DNA of 59,225 nt from Bacteroidia bacterium. GTDB lineage: Bacteria; Bacteroidota; Bacteroidia; AKYH767-A; OLB10. The translations under genes were made by a program, and so were the position numbers. Positions within the stretch are counted from its first letter, which is position 1, and every line of letters starts with the position of its first letter. The notes below the pieces were generated by a model. It was not told the origin of the DNA. It was given only the letters and a program-made list of their open reading frames with translations, and did no database searches. The stretch spans positions 30,319-89,543 of the forward strand of contig JAGOJO010000002.1 in assembly GCA_017995075.1 (NCBI GenBank), given 5' to 3'. Below, one piece after another: positions 3,465 to 25,688 of the stretch.

Positions 3465-4850
3465 ATGGCCATCGGATATTCCCGTTATTTAAAGTCGATC
3501 TATTTATTCATAGACTTACTCCTGCTGAACCTCACGTTCTGTCTGGTGAGTTTCTATTTTAAATATCCCAACCTTTCCGCCGACTCCAATTTTCTTGCGC
3601 AGTTTCTCTACATCAATTTATTCTGGTCGATTACCATTTCCATCTTCCGGGTTCATGAGATAGACCGCGGACTACGATTTGAGCAAGTACTGGGAATGCT
3701 GTTCAGAGCATATGGACTATTTTCCATTATGCTGATTACCTTCCTCTATTTCTTCGATCAGTATTTCATTCCTGTCTTTCATTTTGAATTAAAAATATTC
3801 ATCTGGGGTCTGGTATTTCTTCTCTGGAGATCACTGGCAGCGTACATCATTAATTTCATTCGCCGCCGCGGGATGAACTATCGGAAAGTGATCATTGTTG
3901 GAAATGGAATTCCTGCAAGGGAGATGATGAAGTATTTCAATAAACATCCGGAGATGGGTTATAAACTCAAGGGTGTTTTTTGTGATGAATCACATATCCT
4001 CGATCCACAACAGGTCACCGGAAGGGTTAGTGAAGCCAAGGCCTACGTGCAGGAGAAGAAAATTGATGAAATTTACTGTTCGCTCTCGGGACTTGAAGCA
4101 GAGCAAGTGGCAGATCTGATGAATTTTGCCGACAATAATCTCGTACGCTTCAAGGTAGTTCCTGATTTCAGGGGATTCCTGAGCAGAAAAGTAAAAATTG
4201 ATTTCTATGATCTTGTTCCGGTGCTGAGTATGCGTCGTGAGCCTCTGCAGAATGGGTTTAACCGGATCATCAAACGCACCTTCGACATTGTTTTTTCACT
4301 GTTAGTGATTCTGCTGGTGTTTCCGATTGCGCTGCTTGTTATTGCTCCGTTGATAAAATTAAGTTCCCGCGGGCCTATTTTCTTCAAGCAACTTCGGTCG
4401 GGGAGAAATAACGAAGAATTTTACTGCTATAAATTCCGCACGATGCATGTAAATGATCAGGCGGATTCATTGCAGGCGAAAAAAGGTGATACACGCATAA
4501 CAGCGATTGGTGCATTTTTACGCAAGACGAGTCTCGATGAGTTGCCCCAGTTTTACAATGCACTCATCGGCAATATGTCGGTAGTTGGTCCGAGGCCGCA
4601 CATGCTTCGACACACCGAAGAATACTCCAAGCTTATTGATAAATTCATGGTGCGACAGCTGGTAAAACCCGGCGTGACAGGATGGGCCCAGGTTCATGGT
4701 TACAGAGGAGATACACGCGATAGTAGTCTTATGGAGAAAAGGGTAGAGTACGATGTATGGTACCTCGAAAACTGGTCGCTGATTCTCGATATCAAAATCG
4801 TAGTCATCACTGCATGGCAGGTAATTGCCAGTAAGTACACCGGAGAGTAG
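3465..4850 (+). CDS. Undecaprenyl-phosphate hexose-1-phosphate transferase (WcaJ/WbaP-type initiating sugar transferase)
   Basis: Multi-pass N-terminus, a central Rossmann-like segment (VIIVGNG) and a C-terminal bacterial sugar transferase domain (KRTFDIVFS...PRPHM...KPGVTGWAQV). Confidence 0.85.
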   Translation: MAIGYSRYLKSIYLFIDLLLLNLTFCLVSFYFKYPNLSADSNFLAQFLYINLFWSITISIFRVHEIDRGLRFEQVLGMLFRAYGLFSIMLITFLYFFDQYFIPVFHFELKIFIWGLVFLLWRSLAAYIINFIRRRGMNYRKVIIVGNGIPAREMMKYFNKHPEMGYKLKGVFCDESHILDPQQVTGRVSEAKAYVQEKKIDEIYCSLSGLEAEQVADLMNFADNNLVRFKVVPDFRGFLSRKVKIDFYDLVPVLSMRREPLQNGFNRIIKRTFDIVFSLLVILLVFPIALLVIAPLIKLSSRGPIFFKQLRSGRNNEEFYCYKFRTMHVNDQADSLQAKKGDTRITAIGAFLRKTSLDELPQFYNALIGNMSVVGPRPHMLRHTEEYSKLIDKFMVRQLVKPGVTGWAQVHGYRGDTRDSSLMEKRVEYDVWYLENWSLILDIKIVVITAWQVIASKYTGE

Positions 4851-10267: not shown

Positions 10268-11734
10268 ATGCAAGAGAAACGTAAAATCCGCAACATCGCC
10301 GTTGCTCCCGGTGATGGAATTGGTCCGGAAATCATGGATGCCGTATTGAAAATTTTTAATGCTGCCGGAGTGCCGTTGCAGTACTCGATGGTGGAGATGG
10401 GGAAGGACTGGTACCTGAAAGGGCATTCTTCGGGTATGACTGAGGAGGCTCGTGCGGTGATTGAATCGACTGGTATTCTGTTTAAAGGTCCGATGGAAAC
10501 GCCGAAAGGGAAGGGCATGAAGAGTATCAATGTTACTGCGAGAAAAACCTGGAATACTTATGCGAATAAACGGGTGTTTCGTACTCTGCCTGGCGTGGAA
10601 ACAATTTACAGTAAGGCGGGCATTCCGATCGACCTGACCATCGTGCGCGAAAACATCGAGGATACCTATGGTGGTATCGAGCATATGCTGACGGATGATG
10701 TGGCACTCTGTCGTCGGTTTATTACGCGTCCGGGTTCATTGCAGGTGCATCGTTATGCTTTTGAGATGGCTTCTCGTAAAGGGGCAAGAAAAGTGACGTG
10801 CGCGCATAAAGCCAATATCATGAAACTGACGGATGGACTTTTCCTGGAGGCGTTTTATGAGGTGGCGAAGGACTATCCGGATTTGCAGGCGAATGATGTG
10901 ATTGTAGATGATATGGCAATGAAGCTGGTGATGCGTCCGTATGAATATGATGTGATTGTTCTTCCGAATCTGCAGGGAGATATTATCTCGGATTTATGTG
11001 CCGGTTTGGTGGGCGGATTAGGTTTTGCTCCTTCGGCGAACATCGGTGACTTTGTTTCCATCTTCGAGGCAGTGCATGGTACAGCTCCGGATATAACAGG
11101 ACAACAGAAAGCAAATCCAACTGCGCTTCTGATGAGTGGTTTGATGATGCTTCGTCACCTGGGTTGTGAAACGGAAGCGAATACAATTGAAAACGCTTTG
11201 TATTATTCGCTCGAGCAAGGTGCGCATACTGCAGATTTCGGTGGCTCAGGAAATGCGCTTTCTACCAATCAATATGCAGAGATAATCATTGGCAATTTGG
11301 GTCGTAAACCTACGTCGTCGGTGAAGGAGCAGGCCGTGGTGAATGAAACAGAATTGCCTGCTCTTCCTGCTCATAATCGTATGCTGGTTTCCGGTAAAAA
11401 ATCGAAGAGAGTATTGCAGGGAGTAGATTTATTCCTGGAGAGTGAGGCGCAGCCGGATGTGGTGGCGAAGTCATTACTTTCGGTACTGGGTGACCGTTAT
11501 ACGCTGGTGACGATCAGTAATCGTGGTACACAGGTTTGGCCGACGGGTTCGGTGCTGACTGATCTGGTGAATCAATACCGGGTGAGAGTGGAGCGTACTG
11601 CTGACTTTTTCCCTTCGCAGGATCAGTTGCTGGAATTGAGTAGAGCAGTGGCTTCAAAATTCCATCTCTGTTCTGTGGAGATGTTGCTGTACCTGGATGA
11701 GCAGCCGGGATATTCAAAAGCGCAGGGTCAATAA
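10268..11734 (+). CDS. icd: Isocitrate dehydrogenase (isocitrate/isopropylmalate dehydrogenase family) with ~150-aa C-terminal extension
   Basis: ORF 10073..11734. The family core runs from [14 protein letters not shown] to [27 protein letters not shown]. The N-terminal 65 codons of the ORF overlap the divergent gene and the promoter, so I used ATG 10268. Cofactor preference cannot be judged from the sequence. Confidence 0.8.
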
Positions 11735-12545: not shown

Positions 12546-14798
12546 ATGAGATTATGGGTACTTCTTTTTATCTGCTGTTTGGCTGATCTGGTATCTGCGC
12601 AGGAGAATGCTGTTCCGCAGACTGAAAATCATGCATCTGCGGTTTTACAAGGTGTGGTTCGCGACGAACAGGGTCCGGTGGCATTTGCTGCTGTGGGTAT
12701 TGCAACTTTGCAGCGGAATGTGCTGACTGATGAATCGGGCAGGTTTTTATTGGAGGAGTTGCCGGCTGGCGAATGGAAGGTGGAGGTGCAGGCTGTCGGG
12801 TATAAGGTGCAGGAACGAACGGTGACGATAAAGTCGGGTGAAGCAAAGAAGTTGAATTTTATTCTTGTTTCTGCATTGCAGGATTTCAATGAGGTGGTGA
12901 TCAGCGGTACTCTGCAGCCTGTTGAACGATTGAAGTCGGTGATTCCGGTGGAGTCGTATAGTCCGGCTTTTCTTCGTCGTTCTGCAGCTCCCGGAGTGTT
13001 TGAATCATTAAGCCTGATCAATGGTGTGCAGCCGCAGATAAACTGCAATGTTTGTAATACGGGAGATATTCATATCAATGGGATGGAAGGTCCATATACA
13101 ATGGTGCTGATTGATGGGATGCCGATTGTAAGTAGTTTGAGTACTGTGTATGGACTCAGTGGAATTCCCAATGCATTGATCAAAAGAATTGAAGTGGTGA
13201 AAGGTCCTGCAGGAATTTTATATGGTTCAGAGGCGATGGGTGGAGTGATCAATATTGTCACGAAGGAGCCGATCTCTGCACCACGTTTTTTTGCTGATCT
13301 GCAACTGACTTCTGTGGAGGAGTACAATCTGGATCTGGCGGTGCGGAAAAAAATACAGGACTGGCATACGATGGCGGGAGTGAGTCTGTTTAATTATTCT
13401 ACTCCACGTGATATCAATGAAGATGGATTCACAGATATCACTTTGCAGGAACGAATTTCTGTTTTTAATAAATGGACCAAATACCGTGCTGATACATTAC
13501 CTGCTTCACTCGCATTCCGTTATTTGTACGAGCAACGTTGGGGTGGAGAATTAAACTGGTCGCCCGAATGGAAAGGCACGGATTCCATCTACGGTGAATA
13601 CATCATCACATCTAGAATCGAAGCATTCGGACAATTTGGATTTATGCTGGCGAAGGAGAAAATGCTGATGGAGTATTCTTACAATCGTCACGTGCAGGAC
13701 TCCTGGTATGGTTTGATTCCGTTCGACGGACATCAGGAAACCGGATTCATTCAATTCCGCTGGAATAAAAAAACAGGAGTGCATCAATGGATGTCGGGTC
13801 TGCCATTTCGCTATGTGTACTACGACGACAATACACCCGGCACTGCAGGACCGAATGGAAATACTCCGCAGCAAACCTTTCTTCCCGGACTCTTTCTGCA
13901 GGATGAAATCACTCTTGGTAACAAATGGATGTTATTACCCGGATTCCGTATTGATCATCACAACGAACATGGATTTATTTCATCTCCCCGTTTTGCAGCG
14001 AAGTATAGTTATAGTAAAACAGGAATGATACGCTTCAGCACAGGAAACGGATTTCGTGTAGTGCAGTTGTTTACGGAAGATCATGCAGCTTTAACAGGCG
14101 CAAGAGAAGTCATCATTGCCGAATCACTCCGACCGGAGCGCAGCTGGAACATGAACTTCAACATCAACGAAACTTTTCAATTGAAGGGAGGTGTTCTGCA
14201 GCTGGATGGAAATCTCTTTCATACCTGGTTTACCAACCGCATCACCGGTGACTTCATGACCGACCCTCAACGCATCATCTATAAAAATCTGCAAGGGATT
14301 GCCATTAGTCGCGGCATGAGCCTGAACCTCGATTATACCACCGCTGCTTTCAGATATACACTCGGCGGCACGTATATGGATGTGTTTTTCGAAGAGCAGG
14401 GACAACGCACACCACAACTCCATGCACCGGCCCTCAGCGGAACCGCAGGCATCACCTGGAATGCACGCAATAGAAAGTGGACAGCAGATATTACATCACG
14501 AATCACCGGACCGATGTATCTTCCTGTTGTCCCCAATGATTACCGCCCCGAAAAATCACCATGGTTTGCCATCGTCAATCTTCAGCTCACACATCGCACC
14601 GGAAGCTGGGAGTTTTACTCCGGAGTGAAAAATCTGCTGAACTTCCTCCCGCAAGATCCTATTCTTCGCCCCTTTGATCCCTTCGATAAACAAACCGATA
14701 TCGACAATCCGCATGGTTACACTTTTGATCCCTCTTATAACTACGCACCCATGATGGGAATGAGAGTGTATGCCGGATTCCGGTATCAGTTTTTATAA
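12546..14798 (+). CDS. TonB-dependent receptor with N-terminal CarboxypepD_reg domain
   Basis: Signal peptide, a carboxypeptidase-regulatory-like fold (LQGVVRDEQGPVAFAAVGI), a plug domain (VEVVKGPAGILYGSEAMGGVINIVTK), a beta-barrel and a terminal aromatic residue (RYQFL). Confidence 0.9.
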   Translation: MRLWVLLFICCLADLVSAQENAVPQTENHASAVLQGVVRDEQGPVAFAAVGIATLQRNVLTDESGRFLLEELPAGEWKVEVQAVGYKVQERTVTIKSGEAKKLNFILVSALQDFNEVVISGTLQPVERLKSVIPVESYSPAFLRRSAAPGVFESLSLINGVQPQINCNVCNTGDIHINGMEGPYTMVLIDGMPIVSSLSTVYGLSGIPNALIKRIEVVKGPAGILYGSEAMGGVINIVTKEPISAPRFFADLQLTSVEEYNLDLAVRKKIQDWHTMAGVSLFNYSTPRDINEDGFTDITLQERISVFNKWTKYRADTLPASLAFRYLYEQRWGGELNWSPEWKGTDSIYGEYIITSRIEAFGQFGFMLAKEKMLMEYSYNRHVQDSWYGLIPFDGHQETGFIQFRWNKKTGVHQWMSGLPFRYVYYDDNTPGTAGPNGNTPQQTFLPGLFLQDEITLGNKWMLLPGFRIDHHNEHGFISSPRFAAKYSYSKTGMIRFSTGNGFRVVQLFTEDHAALTGAREVIIAESLRPERSWNMNFNINETFQLKGGVLQLDGNLFHTWFTNRITGDFMTDPQRIIYKNLQGIAISRGMSLNLDYTTAAFRYTLGGTYMDVFFEEQGQRTPQLHAPALSGTAGITWNARNRKWTADITSRITGPMYLPVVPNDYRPEKSPWFAIVNLQLTHRTGSWEFYSGVKNLLNFLPQDPILRPFDPFDKQTDIDNPHGYTFDPSYNYAPMMGMRVYAGFRYQFL

Positions 14799-22738: not shown

Positions 22739-22828
22739 ATGGAATGGTCGGAATATGGGTATTTCTTAAGGAGAATTTCATTGTCTATGTCGGATTCATG
22801 TTTTATGTTCGTAGTCGAAATAAATCGT

Positions 22829-23272
22829 ATGATGTATAAATCGATATTGGCTGCCTGTACCTTCTTTTTACTGCAGGCCTGCTCCGGAGATGGAGTGAAG
22901 GAAAAGATCAACAAAGCCGGTGATGTCGCCGGGCAAACTGTTGGAGAATTTGCCCATGGTGTAAGTACGGGTGTTGAGAAGGCGTTGAACATCAAGATTG
23001 AATTAAGTCAGGCCTTGAAGGATAGCGGTGTCAGTGTCGGAAAAGTTTCTATAGCTGATTCGGGGAACAATGATAACGTATTGCAGGTCTATATGATTTT
23101 TGCAAAGGGGATCAATGCTAACCTTACAGCCAAAGCTTATGACCAGAACGGTGCGGAGATGGGCAGAGTGAAAGTGCCCGTTAAAGCAGGAGCCGATGAA
23201 GCGAAGTATGTGGATTTTATTTTTGATCCGCGAACGAATATCGACAACGACAGTAAATTGGTGATTCAATAA
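22829..23272 (+). CDS. Hypothetical lipoprotein
   Basis: ORF 22739..23272. ATG 22829 gives MMYKSILAACTFFLLQAC, a signal peptide with a lipobox. Confidence 0.5.
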   Translation: MMYKSILAACTFFLLQACSGDGVKEKINKAGDVAGQTVGEFAHGVSTGVEKALNIKIELSQALKDSGVSVGKVSIADSGNNDNVLQVYMIFAKGINANLTAKAYDQNGAEMGRVKVPVKAGADEAKYVDFIFDPRTNIDNDSKLVIQ

Positions 23273-23290
23273 TTCTTGAACCAAAGAAGA

Positions 23291-23851
23291 ATGAAAAATA
23301 AAGGAATAATACTCGTGCTGGTACTTTGTTGCTGTATCCAGGTGCTTGTTTCCGGTCCGGCTGCTTTGAACGACTGGAAGATTTTACCGGGAGATACCAT
23401 TCACATAGGGAATCAGGTGTGGATGAAAAAGAATGTTTCTATTCCGATGCCTAATAGCTTCTGGTATGAGCGGGACTCTGTAAATAACGTTGCAAATGGT
23501 CGATTGTATTTCTTCAGCAGTGCATTGGCCGCTTGTCCGAAAGGATGGCATCTACCTACCGACGAAGAATGGCAGGAGCTCATCAATCATTATGGCGGCG
23601 ATTCACTGGCTGCGAAAGAATTATTGAAAGGCGGCAGCTCCCGCATGAAACTAACGTTATCGGGTTACCGAAGTTCTAATAGTTCGAATGATCTTTTCGG
23701 GAAGAAGGATGAGCAGGGTTTTTACTGGACATCCACCGTTAAAGGTGAACAGACGGCATACGCCAGATGTTTCACTGCAGGATCGCCGGTGGTGACAGAT
23801 ATGTATTATCGGCGGGCCAATGCGTTCTCCGTTCGATATATTCGTGATTGA
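23291..23851 (+). CDS. FISUMP (Fibrobacter succinogenes major paralogous) domain protein
   Basis: Signal peptide, then GNQVWMKKN...CPKGWHLPTDEEWQELINHYGG...YWTST...FSVRYIRD, the typical FISUMP pattern. Confidence 0.75.
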   Translation: MKNKGIILVLVLCCCIQVLVSGPAALNDWKILPGDTIHIGNQVWMKKNVSIPMPNSFWYERDSVNNVANGRLYFFSSALAACPKGWHLPTDEEWQELINHYGGDSLAAKELLKGGSSRMKLTLSGYRSSNSSNDLFGKKDEQGFYWTSTVKGEQTAYARCFTAGSPVVTDMYYRRANAFSVRYIRD

Positions 23852-23852
23852 T

Positions 23853-23900
23853 ACCATGTCAGCATTCGCCTTGCGAACGCTGACATGGTGTGATTTTCTT
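23853..23900 (+). terminator. Strong hairpin plus TGATTTTCTT (terminator-like; 5' part of cloverleaf element copy 1)
   Basis: ACCATGTCAGC-ATTCGCCTTGCGAAC-GCTGACATGGT with an inner TTCGC/GCGAA stem. It starts 2 nt after the FISUMP gene stop. Confidence 0.7.
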
Positions 23901-24050
23901 GACCGCGAAGTAGAGCCATGAGATGTACTTTACTAGCAAAGTACATCTCATGGCACACTTCTCGGCACGGTTAGAAATATGTATCGCCCTGAAGTGTGCC
24001 GTGAAAAAGTACAAAAGTGCTGTTTCACGGCTCTACTTCAGGGGATGTGA
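23853..24050 (+). repeat. Cloverleaf-folding intergenic element, copy 1 (candidate structured RNA or ssDNA element)
   Basis: Direct repeat of 25260-25460. The 3' ~160 nt differ at about 7 positions. On paper it forms a four-way junction: P1 23907-17/24029-39, P2 23918-51, P3 23952-61/23991-24000, P4 24001-06/24023-28. Confidence 0.8.
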
Positions 24051-24057
24051 TGGGATT

Positions 24058-24159
24058 GCTTCTAGCTTCAAGCTTCTAGCCTCTAGCCTCAAGCCTCAAG
24101 CCTCAGGCCTTTAGCTTCTAGCCTTCAGCCCGCAGCCAGTAGCCCAAGGCCAACAGCAG
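24058..24159 (+). repeat. Degenerate heptamer array (GCYNNNN), about 14.5 units
   Basis: GCTTCTA GCTTCAA GCTTCTA GCCTCTA GCCTCAA GCCTCAA GCCTCAG GCCTTTA GCTTCTA GCCTTCA GCCCGCA GCCAGTA GCCCAAG GCCAACA. Confidence 0.85.
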
Positions 24160-24320: not shown

Positions 24321-25241
24321 ATGAAAACAACTATCAAATTAATCGGAGTACTTATCATCCTCATCGGATGCATCTTCCCAAACCAAGCTTCTGCACAAGG
24401 TTGCGGAGTGCCAACCGGCTTAAGTGTAACTGTAGTTTCGACAACATCAACTCAGTTGAACTGGAATGCTATTCCGGGAGCAACACAGTATAATATCGAA
24501 ATTCAGAATGCTACTGGTAACAATGTTCCGTTCCTTCAAACGGCCAATGCTACTACCAACACATTTACAGTAATTAACCTGATAGCAGGTACTAATTACA
24601 AATTCAAAGTGCGCACGCGTTGTGGAGGAACTAAGTCTAACTGGTCAGCGTATTATTTCTTCACCAGTGGAAGCGGACAAACACAATGTAGTCTTCCCAC
24701 AGGCATTACCGTTAGTAATACAACTGCCACTTCTGCTACTGTAAGTTGGGGTGCTGCAGCAGGTGCATTGAGCTATCGCTTGCGTGTTGAAGACGGACAA
24801 AATAATCCGGTTGCTTTCCTGTTTGCAGTATCAACTGCGCAAACTTCCTATACAGTAACAGGATTAACATCTGCTACTAATTACAAAGCAAAACTGCGTA
24901 GCAATTGCGGTGGACTTCTTCACAGTTCATGGACAGCCTGGACTCCATTTACAACAGCTGCTCAACGTATCACTGATCTTCCTGAAGCGAATGTTCAGTT
25001 GTTCCCTAATCCTGCCAATGAAGTTGTTTATCTCGTACTTCCGGATGAATGGACTAACGGCCTTAGCGAAGTAACCATGACTGATATGACCGGCAAAGTT
25101 GTTTACTCTTTCAAAGCACAAAACTCATCTGAGTCTGCACAGTTCGAAGTACCTGTAAATGATTTCCCACAAGGTGTATACATCCTTTCAGTAAAAGCAG
25201 GAGCTGAAGAACATCATCAGCGCTTGAGTATCGTTCACTAA
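24321..25241 (+). CDS. Secreted protein with two fibronectin type III domains and a T9SS C-terminal sorting domain
   Basis: Signal peptide, two units of GCGVPTGLSV/CSLPTGITV...W...Y...V...TNYKFKVR/TNYKAKLR, and a C-terminal LFPNPANEVVYL...GVYILSV Por tail. Confidence 0.8.
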   Translation: MKTTIKLIGVLIILIGCIFPNQASAQGCGVPTGLSVTVVSTTSTQLNWNAIPGATQYNIEIQNATGNNVPFLQTANATTNTFTVINLIAGTNYKFKVRTRCGGTKSNWSAYYFFTSGSGQTQCSLPTGITVSNTTATSATVSWGAAAGALSYRLRVEDGQNNPVAFLFAVSTAQTSYTVTGLTSATNYKAKLRSNCGGLLHSSWTAWTPFTTAAQRITDLPEANVQLFPNPANEVVYLVLPDEWTNGLSEVTMTDMTGKVVYSFKAQNSSESAQFEVPVNDFPQGVYILSVKAGAEEHHQRLSIVH

Positions 25242-25259
25242 ACCCAAGTTGATTGATAT

Positions 25260-25310
25260 AAACCTCGAAAGCATTCGCCTTGCGAAAGCTTTCGAGGTTT
25301 GATTTTCTTG
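25260..25310 (+). terminator. Strong hairpin plus TGATTTTCTT (terminator-like; 5' part of cloverleaf element copy 2)
   Basis: AAACCTCGAAAGC-ATTCGCCTTGCGAA-AGCTTTCGAGGTTT. Confidence 0.7.
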
Positions 25311-25460
25311 ACCGCGAAGTAGAGCCATAAGAGGTACTTTACTAGCAAAGTACCTCTCATGGCACACTTCTCGGCACGGTTAGAAATATGTATCATCCTG
25401 AAGTGTGCCGTGAAATAGTACAAAAGTGCTGTTTCACGGCTCTACTTCAGGGGATGTGAT
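25260..25460 (+). repeat. Cloverleaf-folding intergenic element, copy 2
   Basis: See copy 1. The P2 stem carries a compensated T:A to G:C change relative to copy 1 (25333/25354). Confidence 0.8.
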
Positions 25461-25571
25461 TGATAGAGGTGGTAGAGGTGAGGTGTTTGATTGGTGTTCC
25501 GTTAACAAAGAGTGGAAACGATTAAATCCTTCTGGCCTACCAACGGTCAACGTATTTTAGGCAATTACACC

Positions 25572-25623
25572 GCAGCCCGCAGCCGGTAGCCAGTAGCTTG
25601 CAGCCTGTAGCCTTCGGCTAGCG
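25572..25623 (+). repeat. Degenerate heptamer array (GCYNNNN), about 7 units
   Basis: GCCCGCA GCCGGTA GCCAGTA GCTTGCA GCCTGTA GCCTTCG GCTAGCG. It shares the GCCCGCAGCC..GTAGCC words with the 24058-24159 array. Confidence 0.8.
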
Positions 25624-25688
25624 GCAAACCACTGTATTTCAATAGGTAACGACACTTGCTTCTTCTGTGAAAAACGGGCTTTATTGCT

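What the first reader, a model, noticed from the sequence alone, without database searches (positions are those of the whole stretch)
23853..23889. Hairpin with a completely different but still perfectly paired stem around an identical 14-nt apex in the two element copies
The copy 1 hairpin is ACCATGTCAGC-ATTCGCCTTGCGAAC-GCTGACATGGT (23853-89). The copy 2 hairpin is AAACCTCGAAAGC-ATTCGCCTTGCGAA-AGCTTTCGAGGTTT (25260-25300). The apex ATTCGCCTTGCGAA, itself a TTCGC/GCGAA mini-hairpin, and the following TGATTTTCTTGACCGC are identical. The 11-13-bp outer stems share essentially no sequence. The adjacent 160 nt have diverged by only about 4%, so ordinary drift with compensation cannot explain a fully replaced stem. 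The outer stem therefore looks like a deliberately variable part. It could be copied from or templated by the flanking DNA on insertion, for example by foldback. Alternatively, a conserved module may be targeted next to pre-existing terminator hairpins.
Basis: partly seen in the sequence, partly recalled or inferred. Interest (0 to 1): 0.65.

Follow-up and report, generated by a model that had tools for sequence, protein, structure and literature searches.

The report
Hairpin module of mosaic intergenic repeat
The hairpin is one building block of a patchwork non-coding repeat found only in this uncultured Bacteroidia bacterium and its sister species; its stem drifts at about the neutral rate yet stays paired, and the well-conserved 160 bases beside it are a younger, separately inserted piece, so no stem-rewriting mechanism is needed.

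Summary
Both hairpins exist as described and share the apex ATTCGCCTTGCGAA. Their stems are not unrelated: in register, 7 of 11 positions match and the other 4 base pairs are fully compensated.

The hairpin lies inside a larger repeat: (G/T)TGATTGAT, hairpin 1, GTGATnnnCnTGATAGnGATGATT, hairpin 2 or module J, GGGATGnGATTGAT..., then simple repeats. This genome has at least 13 copies. The family was found only here and in one sister species, out of 41 relatives and a scan of 185,579 species genomes.

Seventeen distinct copies of this hairpin type have different stems around the consensus ACCCCGTCAGC. They are 95% paired, and the apex helix never varies. The 5' arm always follows conserved sequence, so the stem is not copied from unique flanking DNA.

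At orthologous loci, stems differ by 9-37%, against 29% at four-fold sites. The stems therefore drift neutrally while the apex and linkers are constrained.

The adjacent 160 nt (J) is a separate, younger insertion. It is absent from the intact linker at orthologous sites in a 96%-identical strain and in the sister species. That explains the 4% versus 36% contrast.

Loop inversions and transversion-type pair swaps suggest intrastrand template switching keeps the arms complementary. The likely role is a REP/BIME-like hairpin at gene 3' ends; this is inferred, not shown.

The parts
23845..23852 (+). TGATTGAT tag of copy 1. Its second TGA (23849-23851) is the stop codon of the upstream Fib_succ_major gene (ORF 23276-23851).
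   Evidence: The motif is invariant in all 17 H copies.
23853..23889 (+). H-type hairpin 1, copy 1. It has an 11-bp outer stem, an A.C mismatch, and a 5-bp apex helix TTCGC/GCGAA with a CTT triloop.
   Evidence: Covariation is shown.
23890..23902 (+). Linker GTGATTTTCTTGA. It is the first half of the conserved linker GTGATnnnCnTGATAGnGATGATT and is cut here by the J insertion.
   Evidence: The intact linker is seen at the orthologous or paralogous sites L080, L110 and C147.
23903..24042 (+). Module J, copy 1. It consists of CCGC, GAAGTAGAGCC...GGCTCTACTTC and AGG, is about 140 nt long, and folds into a four-way junction. It is a separately inserted, younger module.
   Evidence: (I13). J is absent at orthologous sites in L080 (G015) and L110.
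24043..24059 (+). Remnant of the second scaffold linker (GGATGTGATGGGATTGC).
24058..24159 (+). Heptamer (AGCCnnn) tandem array that ends the mosaic element.
   Evidence: D2, D9. The array length varies between strains (L116).
25250..25257 (+). TGATTGAT tag of copy 2. It lies 8 nt after the TAA stop (25239-25241) of the fn3/T9SS gene.
25260..25300 (+). H-type hairpin 1, copy 2. It has a 13-bp outer stem, an A.A mismatch, and the same apex helix and loop as copy 1.
   Evidence: (I6).
25301..25311 (+). Linker GATTTTCTTGA of copy 2.
25312..25451 (+). Module J, copy 2. It is 96% identical to J of copy 1.
   Evidence: (I14).
25451..25464 (+). Second scaffold linker GGGATGTGATTGAT of copy 2.
25572..25625 (+). 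Heptamer array downstream of copy 2.
   Evidence: D2.

Best explanation
The hairpin is the hairpin-1 module (called H type here) of a lineage-specific mosaic intergenic repeat that resembles REP/BIME elements. The repeat is built as (G/T)TGATTGAT, hairpin 1, GTGATnnnCnTGATAGnGATGATT, hairpin 2 or module J, (C)GGGATGnGATTGATnGATGTGATGGGAT, and then tandem simple repeats.

Shown:
- The GAT-rich linkers, the 5-bp apex helix with its triloop, and the A.C mismatch below the apex are held constant.
- The outer 8-9 base pairs of the stem change at about the neutral rate and stay complementary.
- The two window copies are old paralogues whose stems differ at 4 of 11 base pairs.
- The nearly identical 160 nt next to them is a different, younger module (J). 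It inserted into the linker between TGA and GGGATGA after the split from the sister species.
- The contrast between 4% and 36% divergence therefore reflects two ages, not a stem-diversifying device.

Inferred:
- The arms are kept complementary mainly by intrastrand template switching during replication, which copies one arm from the other and can flip the loop. Selection for a folded single strand adds to this. The conserved mismatch marks one strand for recognition.
- The H type acts as a hairpin at the 3' end of the upstream gene's transcript, as a terminator or exonuclease barrier, in the way proposed for REP/BIME elements.

The confidence given applies to the structural and evolutionary account. 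The functional role alone I would put at about 0.35.
For: Architecture and copy number
- There are 8 H copies and 13 scaffold elements in G000.
- Further copies occur in sister species G015 and in metagenome strains.
- Two independent assemblies, one with an 856-kb contig, are 99.8-99.9% identical to the window across the locus and carry both hairpin-plus-J copies with the same sequence.

Distribution
- The CM search hit 2 of 41 relatives.
- In the GTDB-wide pattern scan, the only true hits were on 8 contigs of one Lake Mendota Bacteroidia MAG.
- No copies were found in viral contigs.

Covariation
- Across 17 distinct H copies, 94.9% of cells are paired.
- 8 pairs show changes on both sides, in 24 cells.
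- 0 of 500 shuffles reach these values, and slid controls pair at 36-40%.
- The 5 apex pairs are invariant.

Rates
- G000 and G015 are 89% identical over 6.9 kb.
- Four-fold degenerate sites differ at 185 of 635 positions, or 29%.
- Stems at orthologous loci differ at 2/22, 9/24 and 8/32 positions.
- Their apex and linkers differ at 0-1 position.

J is separate and younger
- L110 is the orthologue of the C154 locus, 96.1% identical over 2.35 kb. It has the same hairpin followed by the intact linker GTGATTTTCGTGA-TA-GGGATGATT with no J.
- The G015 orthologue of the copy 1 locus (L080) carries an ordinary hairpin 2 instead of J.
- J-like modules also belong to a second mosaic family elsewhere in the genome.

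Template switching
- The loop is inverted in C166 (AAG instead of CTT), and there the A.C mismatch has become G-C.
- Hairpin-2 loops read ATG in one copy and CAT in others.
- Half of the double changes are transversion swaps that have no wobble intermediate.
- The mechanism is described in PMC8794818 and PMC8604942.

Position at gene 3' ends
- At 9 of 13 distinct H loci, a long co-oriented ORF ends between -7 and 31 nt before TGATTGAT.
- Related species that lack the element keep the fn3-to-ileS synteny and have ordinary hairpin-plus-T-run terminators at that position.
Against: - The transcribed strand and any RNA role are therefore untested.
- The simple terminator scan does not call H. The U-rich tract starts 4 nt after the stem.
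- Non-H elements of the same scaffold mostly abut the start of a divergent gene (4 of 5), and one H copy (C166) does too. Orientation relative to genes is therefore not uniform.
- Mismatch types do not decide the functional strand. By my count of independent events there are about 14 A.C against about 6 G.T.
- Template switching is inferred from footprints.
- Some hairpin changes are too large for drift at the observed strain divergence. At the C147 locus, hairpin 2 is about 50% different while the flanks are 98% identical. No donor copy was found for it.
Confidence: 0.7

Rival explanations
1. Mobile single-strand DNA element. On this reading the hairpins are TGAT-tagged palindromes, analogous to GTAG-tagged REPs or to the ends of IS200/IS605-derived miniature elements. 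They would insert 3' of a TTGAT-like target, as ISDra2 does, and be moved in trans by a Y1 (HUH) transposase. The conserved A.C mismatch would mark the strand that the enzyme recognises. This concerns origin and spread and is compatible with the best explanation.
For: - Every hairpin 1 starts 0-4 nt after (G/T)TGATTGAT, and every hairpin 2 starts after GATGAT(T/C).
- Related species without the element already have TTGAT-like words at the homologous spot. After kdsB, G003, G016 and G005 read ttattttct(t/g)tgattTA where G000 reads attatttcttgattGATgcccc. The fn3 orthologues end in CATTGATAC, CATTGATAA or CGTTGATAT.
- One IS200/IS605-type transposase gene is present in G000 and one in G015. The G000 protein scores 62 bits against NF033573, above its 55-bit cut-off.
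- Hairpin modules sit at different loci in the two species. Similar hairpins, about 10% different, occur at the C40 locus in G000 and at the C111 orthologue in G015.
- J shows presence/absence polymorphism with clean boundaries.
Against: - All scaffold loci that are assembled in both species carry an element in both. No gain or loss of a whole H element was seen.
- The transposase gene is flanked by a different ~180-nt tandem repeat, not by H or scaffold units.
- The same transposase family occurs in genus members that lack the elements.
- Each hairpin sequence is unique in the genome rather than multi-copy.
- The target-site resemblance rests on two loci.
Confidence: 0.2
2. A family of structured small RNA genes or cis-regulatory RNA elements. 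The invariant apex would be a binding site for a protein or a target RNA, and the GAU/GGA-rich linkers would act as single-stranded protein-binding tracts, like a sponge RNA.
For: - Covariation is strong with an invariant apex.
- The whole H-plus-J region folds very stably, with z about -12.5.
- The single-stranded linkers are conserved across old paralogues.
- The minus-strand version of H is a continuous 17-bp helix containing a G.U pair.
Against: - No Rfam family matches; only generic hairpin (miRNA) models score, and all fall below threshold.
- Both strands fold equally well.
- Half of the pair swaps are transversions and wobble intermediates are rare.
- Loops flip in place.
- Whole hairpins are exchanged between loci.
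- No promoter or terminator signals define a gene.
- The family is restricted to two species.
Confidence: 0.12
3. The outer stem would be generated anew at each insertion, with the 5' arm taken from unique flanking DNA and the 3' arm synthesised as its reverse complement by foldback.
For: - Every copy has a different stem.
- In copy 2 and in L016, the stem extends by A-T pairs into the neighbouring T-rich linker (TTTGATTTTC). This could be a small templated extension.
Against: - The conserved TGATTGAT lies 5' of every stem.
- The stems are graded variants of one consensus. Copy 2 differs from C147 at one base pair, and copies 1 and 2 share 7 of 11 positions.
- Orthologous loci in two species carry related stems, so the stems are inherited and not made at insertion.
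- Between strains 96-99% identical in the flanks, the H stems are identical at five loci and differ by a single uncompensated base at the sixth, the C154 locus.
Confidence: 0.03
4. A double-stranded DNA operator. On this reading TTCGC-N3-GCGAA is a palindromic binding site for a dimeric regulator, and the surrounding stem is incidental.
For: The 5-3-5 inverted repeat is invariant in 17 copies in intergenic DNA.
Against: - A duplex operator would not require 11-13 further base pairs of covarying complementarity.
- It would not require a conserved A.C mismatch.
- Most copies lie just after stop codons, not in promoter regions.
- The same core also sits on top of an unrelated long stem, in hairpin 2 of L080.
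Confidence: 0.04

Closest known systems
REP sequences and BIMEs (bacterial interspersed mosaic elements), including REPIN/RAYT systems (Di Nocera et al. 2013, PMC3733652)
   Same: - Both are 35-40-nt imperfect palindromes with an unpaired conserved tag at one end.
- Both are combined with other short conserved motifs into mosaics.
- Both lie in intergenic DNA, mostly just downstream of coding regions.
- Both are lineage-specific.
- Both are proposed to act as RNA 3'-end hairpins.
   Different: - The tag here is TGAT/TGATTGAT, not GTAG or CGTC.
- There are tens of copies, not hundreds.
- No RAYT gene is flanked by the repeats; the only Y1 transposase is IS200-type and sits among other repeats.
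- Stems differ from copy to copy while the apex is fixed.
- Hairpins are separated by conserved GAT-rich linkers and are followed by simple tandem repeats.
IS200/IS605-family elements and their miniature derivatives (for example ISDra2, which inserts 3' of TTGAT; from my own knowledge, and PMC6006769 abstract)
   Same: - Hairpins lie directly 3' of a TTGAT-containing word.
- The palindromes are imperfect, with a conserved mismatch that could give strand specificity.
- TTGAT-like words are present at empty sites in relatives.
- An IS200-type TnpA is encoded in the genome.
   Different: - No left-end/right-end pair bounds a defined unit.
- No recent insertion of an H unit was observed.
- The flanks of the tnpA gene are unrelated to H.
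- The distance between the tag and the hairpin is 0-4 nt, not ~15-20 nt as at IS608 left ends (from my own knowledge).
Hairpins created and maintained by replication template switching (Monttinen and Loytynoja 2022, PMC8794818; PMC8604942)
   Same: - The stems are perfectly complementary despite neutral-rate change.
- Compensatory changes affect several bases at once and include transversions.
- Loops are inverted in place.
   Different: Those papers describe a mutational process seen in rRNA and coding genes, not a repeat family. In this family the process is inferred from footprints only.
Integron attC sites
   Same: Both are sites with conserved structure and variable sequence that lie directly after ORFs, and both contain a strand-marking unpaired base.
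   Different: - No RYYYAAC/GTTRRRY core sites flank H.
- The gene between the two copies is a resident gene, syntenic with ileS in species that lack the element. It is not a cassette.
Intrinsic (Rho-independent) terminators
   Same: Both have a stable GC-containing hairpin shortly after a stop codon, followed by a U-rich stretch (GUGAUUUUCUU). Relatives have ordinary terminators at the same place.
   Different: - The U tract begins 4 nt after the stem.
- The apex and both flanks are conserved between unrelated genes.
- The consensus scan does not call H as a terminator.

Membership tests
REP (GTAG/CGTC-tagged palindromic repeats) | A 20-40-bp palindromic unit that forms a stable hairpin | tested here: met
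   The hairpins are 37 and 41 nt, fold at -25 and -25.9 kcal/mol, with z about -7.8.
REP (GTAG/CGTC-tagged palindromic repeats) | An unpaired GTAG or CGTC tag at one end (PMC3733652) | tested here: not met
   All copies are flanked by TGATTGAT on the 5' side and G(T)GAT on the 3' side. Neither strand has GTAG or CGTC next to the stem.
REP (GTAG/CGTC-tagged palindromic repeats) | High copy number, tens to hundreds per genome | tested here: inconclusive
   There are 8 H copies and 13 scaffold elements in a MAG that is 80% complete. At least two further loci are hidden in runs of N.
REP (GTAG/CGTC-tagged palindromic repeats) | A RAYT (REP-associated tyrosine transposase) gene flanked by the repeats | tested here: not met
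   The genome has a single Y1_Tnp gene. It scores as IS200-type (62 bits) and reaches only 33 bits against the 80-bit cut-off of the RAYT model. Its flanks are a different tandem repeat.
REP (GTAG/CGTC-tagged palindromic repeats) | Location mostly downstream of coding regions | tested here: met
   At 9 of 13 H loci, a co-oriented ORF ends within -7 to 31 nt upstream.
BIME-type mosaic element | Palindromic units combined with other conserved short motifs in variable arrangements | tested here: met
   The scaffold has exchangeable hairpin 1, hairpin 2 or J, and simple repeats. One locus has scaffold units in tandem (L046). Orthologous loci carry different modules.
IS200/IS605-derived miniature element | Insertion 3' of a fixed tetra- or pentanucleotide without target duplication | tested here: inconclusive
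   TTGAT precedes every hairpin. TTGAT-like words occur at two empty sites in relatives. No insertion event of an H unit was captured.
IS200/IS605-derived miniature element | End hairpins that match those of a resident autonomous element | tested here: not met
   No H or scaffold sequence lies next to the tnpA gene.
Integron attC | R''/R' core sites (RYYYAAC ... GTTRRRY) flanking the hairpin, within a cassette array | tested here: not met
   Direct reading of the flanks finds no such sites. The bracketed gene is syntenic with ileS in species without the element.
Any Rfam RNA family | A score at or above the family's gathering threshold | tested here: not met
   The window gives 0 matches. Only sub-threshold miRNA-type hairpin hits appear at E up to 10.
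Intrinsic terminator | A GC-rich stem followed within 0-2 nt by a T run | tested here: not met
   The consensus scan does not report H. The T-rich tract starts 4 nt after the stem.
Intrinsic terminator | Transcript 3' ends map just after the hairpin | not testable with these tools

The most novel reading that the evidence does not exclude
The elements may be a new class of palindromic repeat in Bacteroidota, like REPs but tagged with TGAT. In this reading, hairpins are exchanged as cassettes between conserved GAT-rich docking sites 3' of TTGAT. An enzyme that acts on single-stranded DNA would do this, either the resident IS200-type Y1 transposase or an unknown one. It would read the invariant apex and the A.C mismatch, while the stems correct themselves by template switching.
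Probability: 0.15. Interest if true: 0.6.

Novelty: new variant of a known kind. Interest (0 to 1): 0.3.

Why it matters
The result removes the need for a special stem-rewriting mechanism. The puzzle came from comparing two modules of different age. It also gives a clean natural example of hairpin stems that change at the neutral rate yet stay paired, with loop flips and transversion swaps that point to template switching rather than stepwise RNA-level compensation.

The family extends REP/BIME-type mosaics to an uncultured freshwater and wastewater Bacteroidia lineage, with a different tag (TGAT) and no RAYT. It therefore offers a small test system of about 15 loci per genome for two questions: what constrains an apex and a mismatch inside an otherwise free palindrome, and how such modules move between docking sites.

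For annotation, these regions should not be called RNA genes or terminators on covariation alone.

Tried and rejected
- **Rfam.** Neither the gathering threshold nor E up to 10 gave a family, only generic miRNA-hairpin hits.
- **Viral contigs.** The hairpin-plus-tag pattern gave no hits. The 11 linker-pattern hits are all Asp-rich coding sequence (GDIRDSDD-type), not elements.
- **GTDB-wide linker scan.** Hits outside the sister MAG are single chance or coding matches. Of the hits outside that MAG I read only three; the Saprospiraceae, Nemorincola and Nitrosopumilus records are coding or unrelated sequence.
- **G015 orthologue of the copy 2 locus.** It is not assembled in that MAG.
- **Whole-element empty sites between G000 and G015.** Every locus assembled in both has an element. 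Two G000 loci (C84, C152) are runs of N exactly where relatives carry H.
- **Choosing the functional strand from A.C versus G.T mismatches.** My count of independent events gives about 14 against about 6, which is not decisive. Much of the raw count comes from spurious long-range pairs.
- **Donor copies for replaced hairpins.** None was found in G000.
- **RAYT link.** The only Y1 gene is IS200-type and is surrounded by a different repeat.
- **Integron or cassette reading of gene-element-gene-element.** Rejected because the fn3 gene is syntenic with ileS in species that lack the element.
- **Terminator scan.** It does not call H.

Full report
**Observation**

Each folds into a single hairpin. 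An outer stem is interrupted by one mismatch and capped by a 5-bp helix, TTCGC/GCGAA, with a CTT triloop.
- As RNA the energies are -25.0 and -25.9 kcal/mol, z about -7.8, and 0 of 200 shuffles fold as well.
- DNA parameters give the same structure.
- The 14-nt apex occurs exactly twice in the window.
- The next ~160 nt are 96% identical between the copies.

Read outward from the apex, ACCATGTCAGC and ACCTCGAAAGC agree at 7 of 11 positions, and the four differing base pairs are all compensated. Copy 2 has extra A-T pairs at its base.

**The hairpin is internal to a larger element**

A search of the window's own genome (a MAG of 3.24 Mb in 176 contigs, 80% complete) found eight hairpins with this apex. 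In every one, the 5' arm is preceded by (G/T)TGATTGAT and the 3' arm is followed by GTGATTTTC(N)TGA. The 5' arm is therefore never continuous with unique flanking DNA.

A covariance model of the module and a regular-expression scan revealed a general scaffold present at least 13 times in this genome. Its parts, in order, are:
- TGATTGAT
- hairpin 1
- GTGATnnnCnTGATAG(G/T)GATGATT
- hairpin 2, often with a CCCGAGGTA...TACCTCGGG foot
- (C)GGGATGnGATTGATnGATGTGATGGGAT
- tandem simple repeats (GGGATGTTC-type nonamers, AGCCnnn heptamers and others)

Hairpin 1 can be the apex type studied here (H) or quite different palindromes.

**Distribution**

- The model hit only this genome and one same-genus genome (G015) among 41 genomes. 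That set includes 18 other species of the genus.
- A scan of one genome from each of 185,579 species with the linker pattern found true elements only on 8 contigs of a Lake Mendota 'Bacteroidia bacterium' MAG. The sequences show this is G015. The hits elsewhere are single matches; the three I read are coding or unrelated sequence.
- Viral contigs have none.
- A metagenome scan gave nine true loci from strains 96-99% identical to this genome.
- Two independent assemblies, one with an 856-kb contig, are 99.8-99.9% identical to the window across the locus and carry both hairpin-plus-J copies with the same sequence. The arrangement is therefore not an assembly artefact.
- Rfam has no matching family.

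**Stems**

Seventeen distinct H copies were aligned. They scatter around the consensus ACCCCGTCAGC...GCTGACGGGGT. The stem of copy 2 differs from the C147 copy at a single base pair. On this alignment:
- 94.9% of cells form standard pairs, against 36-40% when the partner column is slid.
- 8 of the 11 outer pairs show changes on both sides, in 24 cells.
- 0 of 500 shuffles reach the observed values.
- All five apex pairs and the adjacent G-C pair never vary.

The stem is a normal covarying helix that descends from one ancestor. It is neither two sub-families nor a stem made afresh for each copy.

**Rates, and why the adjacent 160 nt mislead**

The sister species is 89% identical over 6.9 kb around the locus. 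It differs at 185 of 635 four-fold degenerate sites, or 29%.

Elements occupy orthologous loci in both species: copy 1 with L080, C132b with L046, two loci on C55, C40 with L060, and C111 with L026. The family therefore predates the split.
- Orthologous stems differ at 2 of 22, 9 of 24 and 8 of 32 positions, 24% overall. This is about the neutral rate.
- Nearly all of these changes are compensated.
- The apex, tag and linker differ at 0-1 position.
- Between strains 96-99% identical, H stems are the same or differ by one base.

Nothing in these rates calls for accelerated or directed change.

The 160-nt block (J) has its own history.
- At the kdsB locus, G000 reads GTGATTTTCGTGA-[CCGC GAAGTAGAGCC ... 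CTACTTCAG]-GGGATGATT.
- The orthologous contig L110 is 96.1% identical over 2.35 kb. It reads GTGATTTTCGTGA-TA-GGGATGATT, which is the intact canonical linker, after the same hairpin.
- At the copy 1 locus, G015 has the intact linker and an ordinary hairpin 2 where G000 has J.
- J-like sequences also form part of a second mosaic family elsewhere in the genome.

J is therefore a younger module that entered pre-existing H elements. Its 4% divergence says nothing about the age of the hairpins. The apex and the TGATTTTCTTGA stretch, however, belong to the old hairpin module.

**How pairing is kept (inferred)**

Neutral-rate change with almost perfect complementarity is hard to obtain by stepwise compensation. 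Three features fit intrastrand template switching, which copies one arm from the other and can invert the spacer (PMC8794818, PMC8604942).
- In copy C166 the loop reads AAG instead of CTT, and the A.C mismatch has become G-C. This is a perfected palindrome with a flipped loop.
- Hairpin-2 loops read ATG in one copy and CAT in others.
- Half of the 24 double changes are transversion swaps (A-T to T-A, G-C to T-A, C-G to G-C) with no wobble intermediate. One-sided G.U states are rare.

Against this self-correcting background, one feature stands out. The A.C mismatch below the apex persists in 15 of the 17 copies; copy 2 has A.A there and C166 has G-C. The same arrangement recurs in unrelated hairpins of the family: a 5' A and a 3' C flanking a 4-5-bp apex helix and a triloop (C55 hairpin 1, C166 and L058 hairpin 2, L026 hairpin 1). 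This argues that a folded single strand is recognised in a strand-specific way. Whether that strand is RNA or DNA, plus or minus, could not be decided. My mismatch count is about 14 A.C against about 6 G.T, and on the minus strand the mismatch becomes a G.U pair.

**Likely role (inferred)**

At 9 of 13 distinct H loci, a long co-oriented ORF ends between 7 nt inside and 31 nt before TGATTGAT. In copy 1 the stop codon is part of the tag. Species of the genus that lack the element keep the fn3/T9SS-to-ileS gene order and have ordinary hairpin-plus-T-run terminators after the fn3 gene. H is followed by GUGAUUUUCUU. The most economical reading is a REP/BIME-like hairpin at the 3' end of the upstream message.

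The caveats are these.
- The simple terminator scan does not call H.
- Non-H elements mostly abut the start of a divergent gene.
- No expression data could be obtained.

**Mobility lead**

Every hairpin follows a TTGAT-containing word. The homologous empty sites in relatives already contain TTGAT-like words, after kdsB in the G003/G016/G005 group and at the stop codon of the fn3 orthologues. ISDra2 of the IS200/IS605 family inserts 3' of TTGAT (my own knowledge). The genome encodes one IS200-type transposase.

However, that gene sits among a different repeat, the same family occurs in genus members without the elements, and no gain or loss of an H unit was seen.

Hairpin modules do move or get replaced.
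- Similar hairpins lie at the C40 locus in G000 and at the C111 orthologue in G015.
- Hairpin 2 at the C147 locus is about half different between strains whose flanks are 98% identical. No donor was found in the assembly. This remains unexplained.

**Comparison with known systems, and verdict**

The element works like REP/BIME mosaics but fails the membership tests for tagged REPs. It has no GTAG or CGTC tag and no RAYT flanked by the repeats (PMC3733652). It is not an attC site, a Rfam family, or a canonical terminator. I class it as a new variant of a known kind.

The specific surprise that motivated the finding dissolves on inspection. The stems are related, they drift at the neutral rate, and the conserved neighbour is a later insertion. 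Earlier notes of this scan describe similar mosaic hairpin repeats in other lineages. I treat them as leads only.

Noticed in passing
window 23903-24042 and 25312-25451; G000 C154:62090-62230; L110: Module J folds as a four-way junction with ends GAAGTAGAGCC/GGCTCTACTTC. It shows presence/absence polymorphism: it sits between TGA and GGGATGA of the linker and replaces TA at the empty site. Its two halves also occur 100-150 nt apart, separated by CTGTAATCC-type simple repeats, in a second mosaic family on contigs C94, C47, C96 and C147.
   Followed up: partly
G000 C147:3312-3371 versus L119:~690-750: Hairpin 2 at one locus is about 50% different between two strains whose flanks are 95.7-98.3% identical. 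All differences are compensated, and the CCCGAG...CTCGGG foot is kept. No donor copy was found in the assembly.
   Followed up: partly
G000 C40:~11284-11346 versus L026 (G015 orthologue of the G000 C111 locus): About the same long hairpin 1 (about 10% different) sits at non-orthologous scaffold loci in the two species. Meanwhile the C111 locus of G000 carries the H type, and the C40 orthologue in G015 (L060) carries a third hairpin. Hairpin modules are exchanged between docking sites.
   Followed up: partly
L080 (G015 orthologue of the copy 1 locus), hairpin 2: The same core, CAGTATTCGCCTTGCGAACACTG, caps an unrelated 24-bp stem (CCCGAGTTGAACGGCCTTTCCAGT...). The apex core can therefore sit on a different palindrome. 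This may be a nested insertion into a loop.
   Followed up: no
G000 C166 (minus strand) about 14255-14325; hairpin-2 loops of C147, C55 and C35: Loops are inverted in place: CTT becomes AAG, with the A.C mismatch converted to G-C, and ATG alternates with CAT. These are footprints of template switching.
   Followed up: partly
L046 (G015) 2611-2913: Five tandem copies of a 59-nt scaffold unit without hairpins (GTGATATTCATGATAGGGATGATTTTTCGAGGCGGAGGAGAGGGATGTGATTGATGGGG).
   Followed up: no
G000 C35, C55, C126 and C166, downstream of the scaffold: G-rich simple repeats on the element's plus strand, such as (GGGATGTTC)n and (GGGATGTGGGGATGAT)n, fit the G3-N1-7 pattern for G-quadruplex formation.
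   Followed up: no
G000 C129:3971-4312 (L040 about 380-1476 upstream): The single IS200-type transposase gene is preceded by a tandem array of a ~180-nt repeat that contains GCCCTGGGTTTAAACCCGCCGCGGCC. This repeat is unrelated to H.
   Followed up: partly
G000 C84:~1930-2087 and C152:~4300-4560: Runs of N lie exactly where close strains and G015 carry H elements (after an M23 peptidase gene, and after an aminopeptidase gene upstream of rpmG). Element counts in this MAG are therefore underestimates.
   Followed up: yes
window 22739-23851: The two genes upstream of copy 1, one of them Fib_succ_major, are absent from the syntenic position in G002, G013 and G017. There an EamA-like transporter gene or other sequence precedes the fn3 gene.
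   Followed up: no
L047 and other CBDFIG01 loci (Nitrosopumilus MAG); viral loci L142-L152: The linker pattern GTGATnnnCnTGATAGnGATGAT recurs in unrelated genomes as Asp-rich coding sequence (GD..DSDD). This is a caution when searching for the scaffold by pattern.
   Followed up: partly
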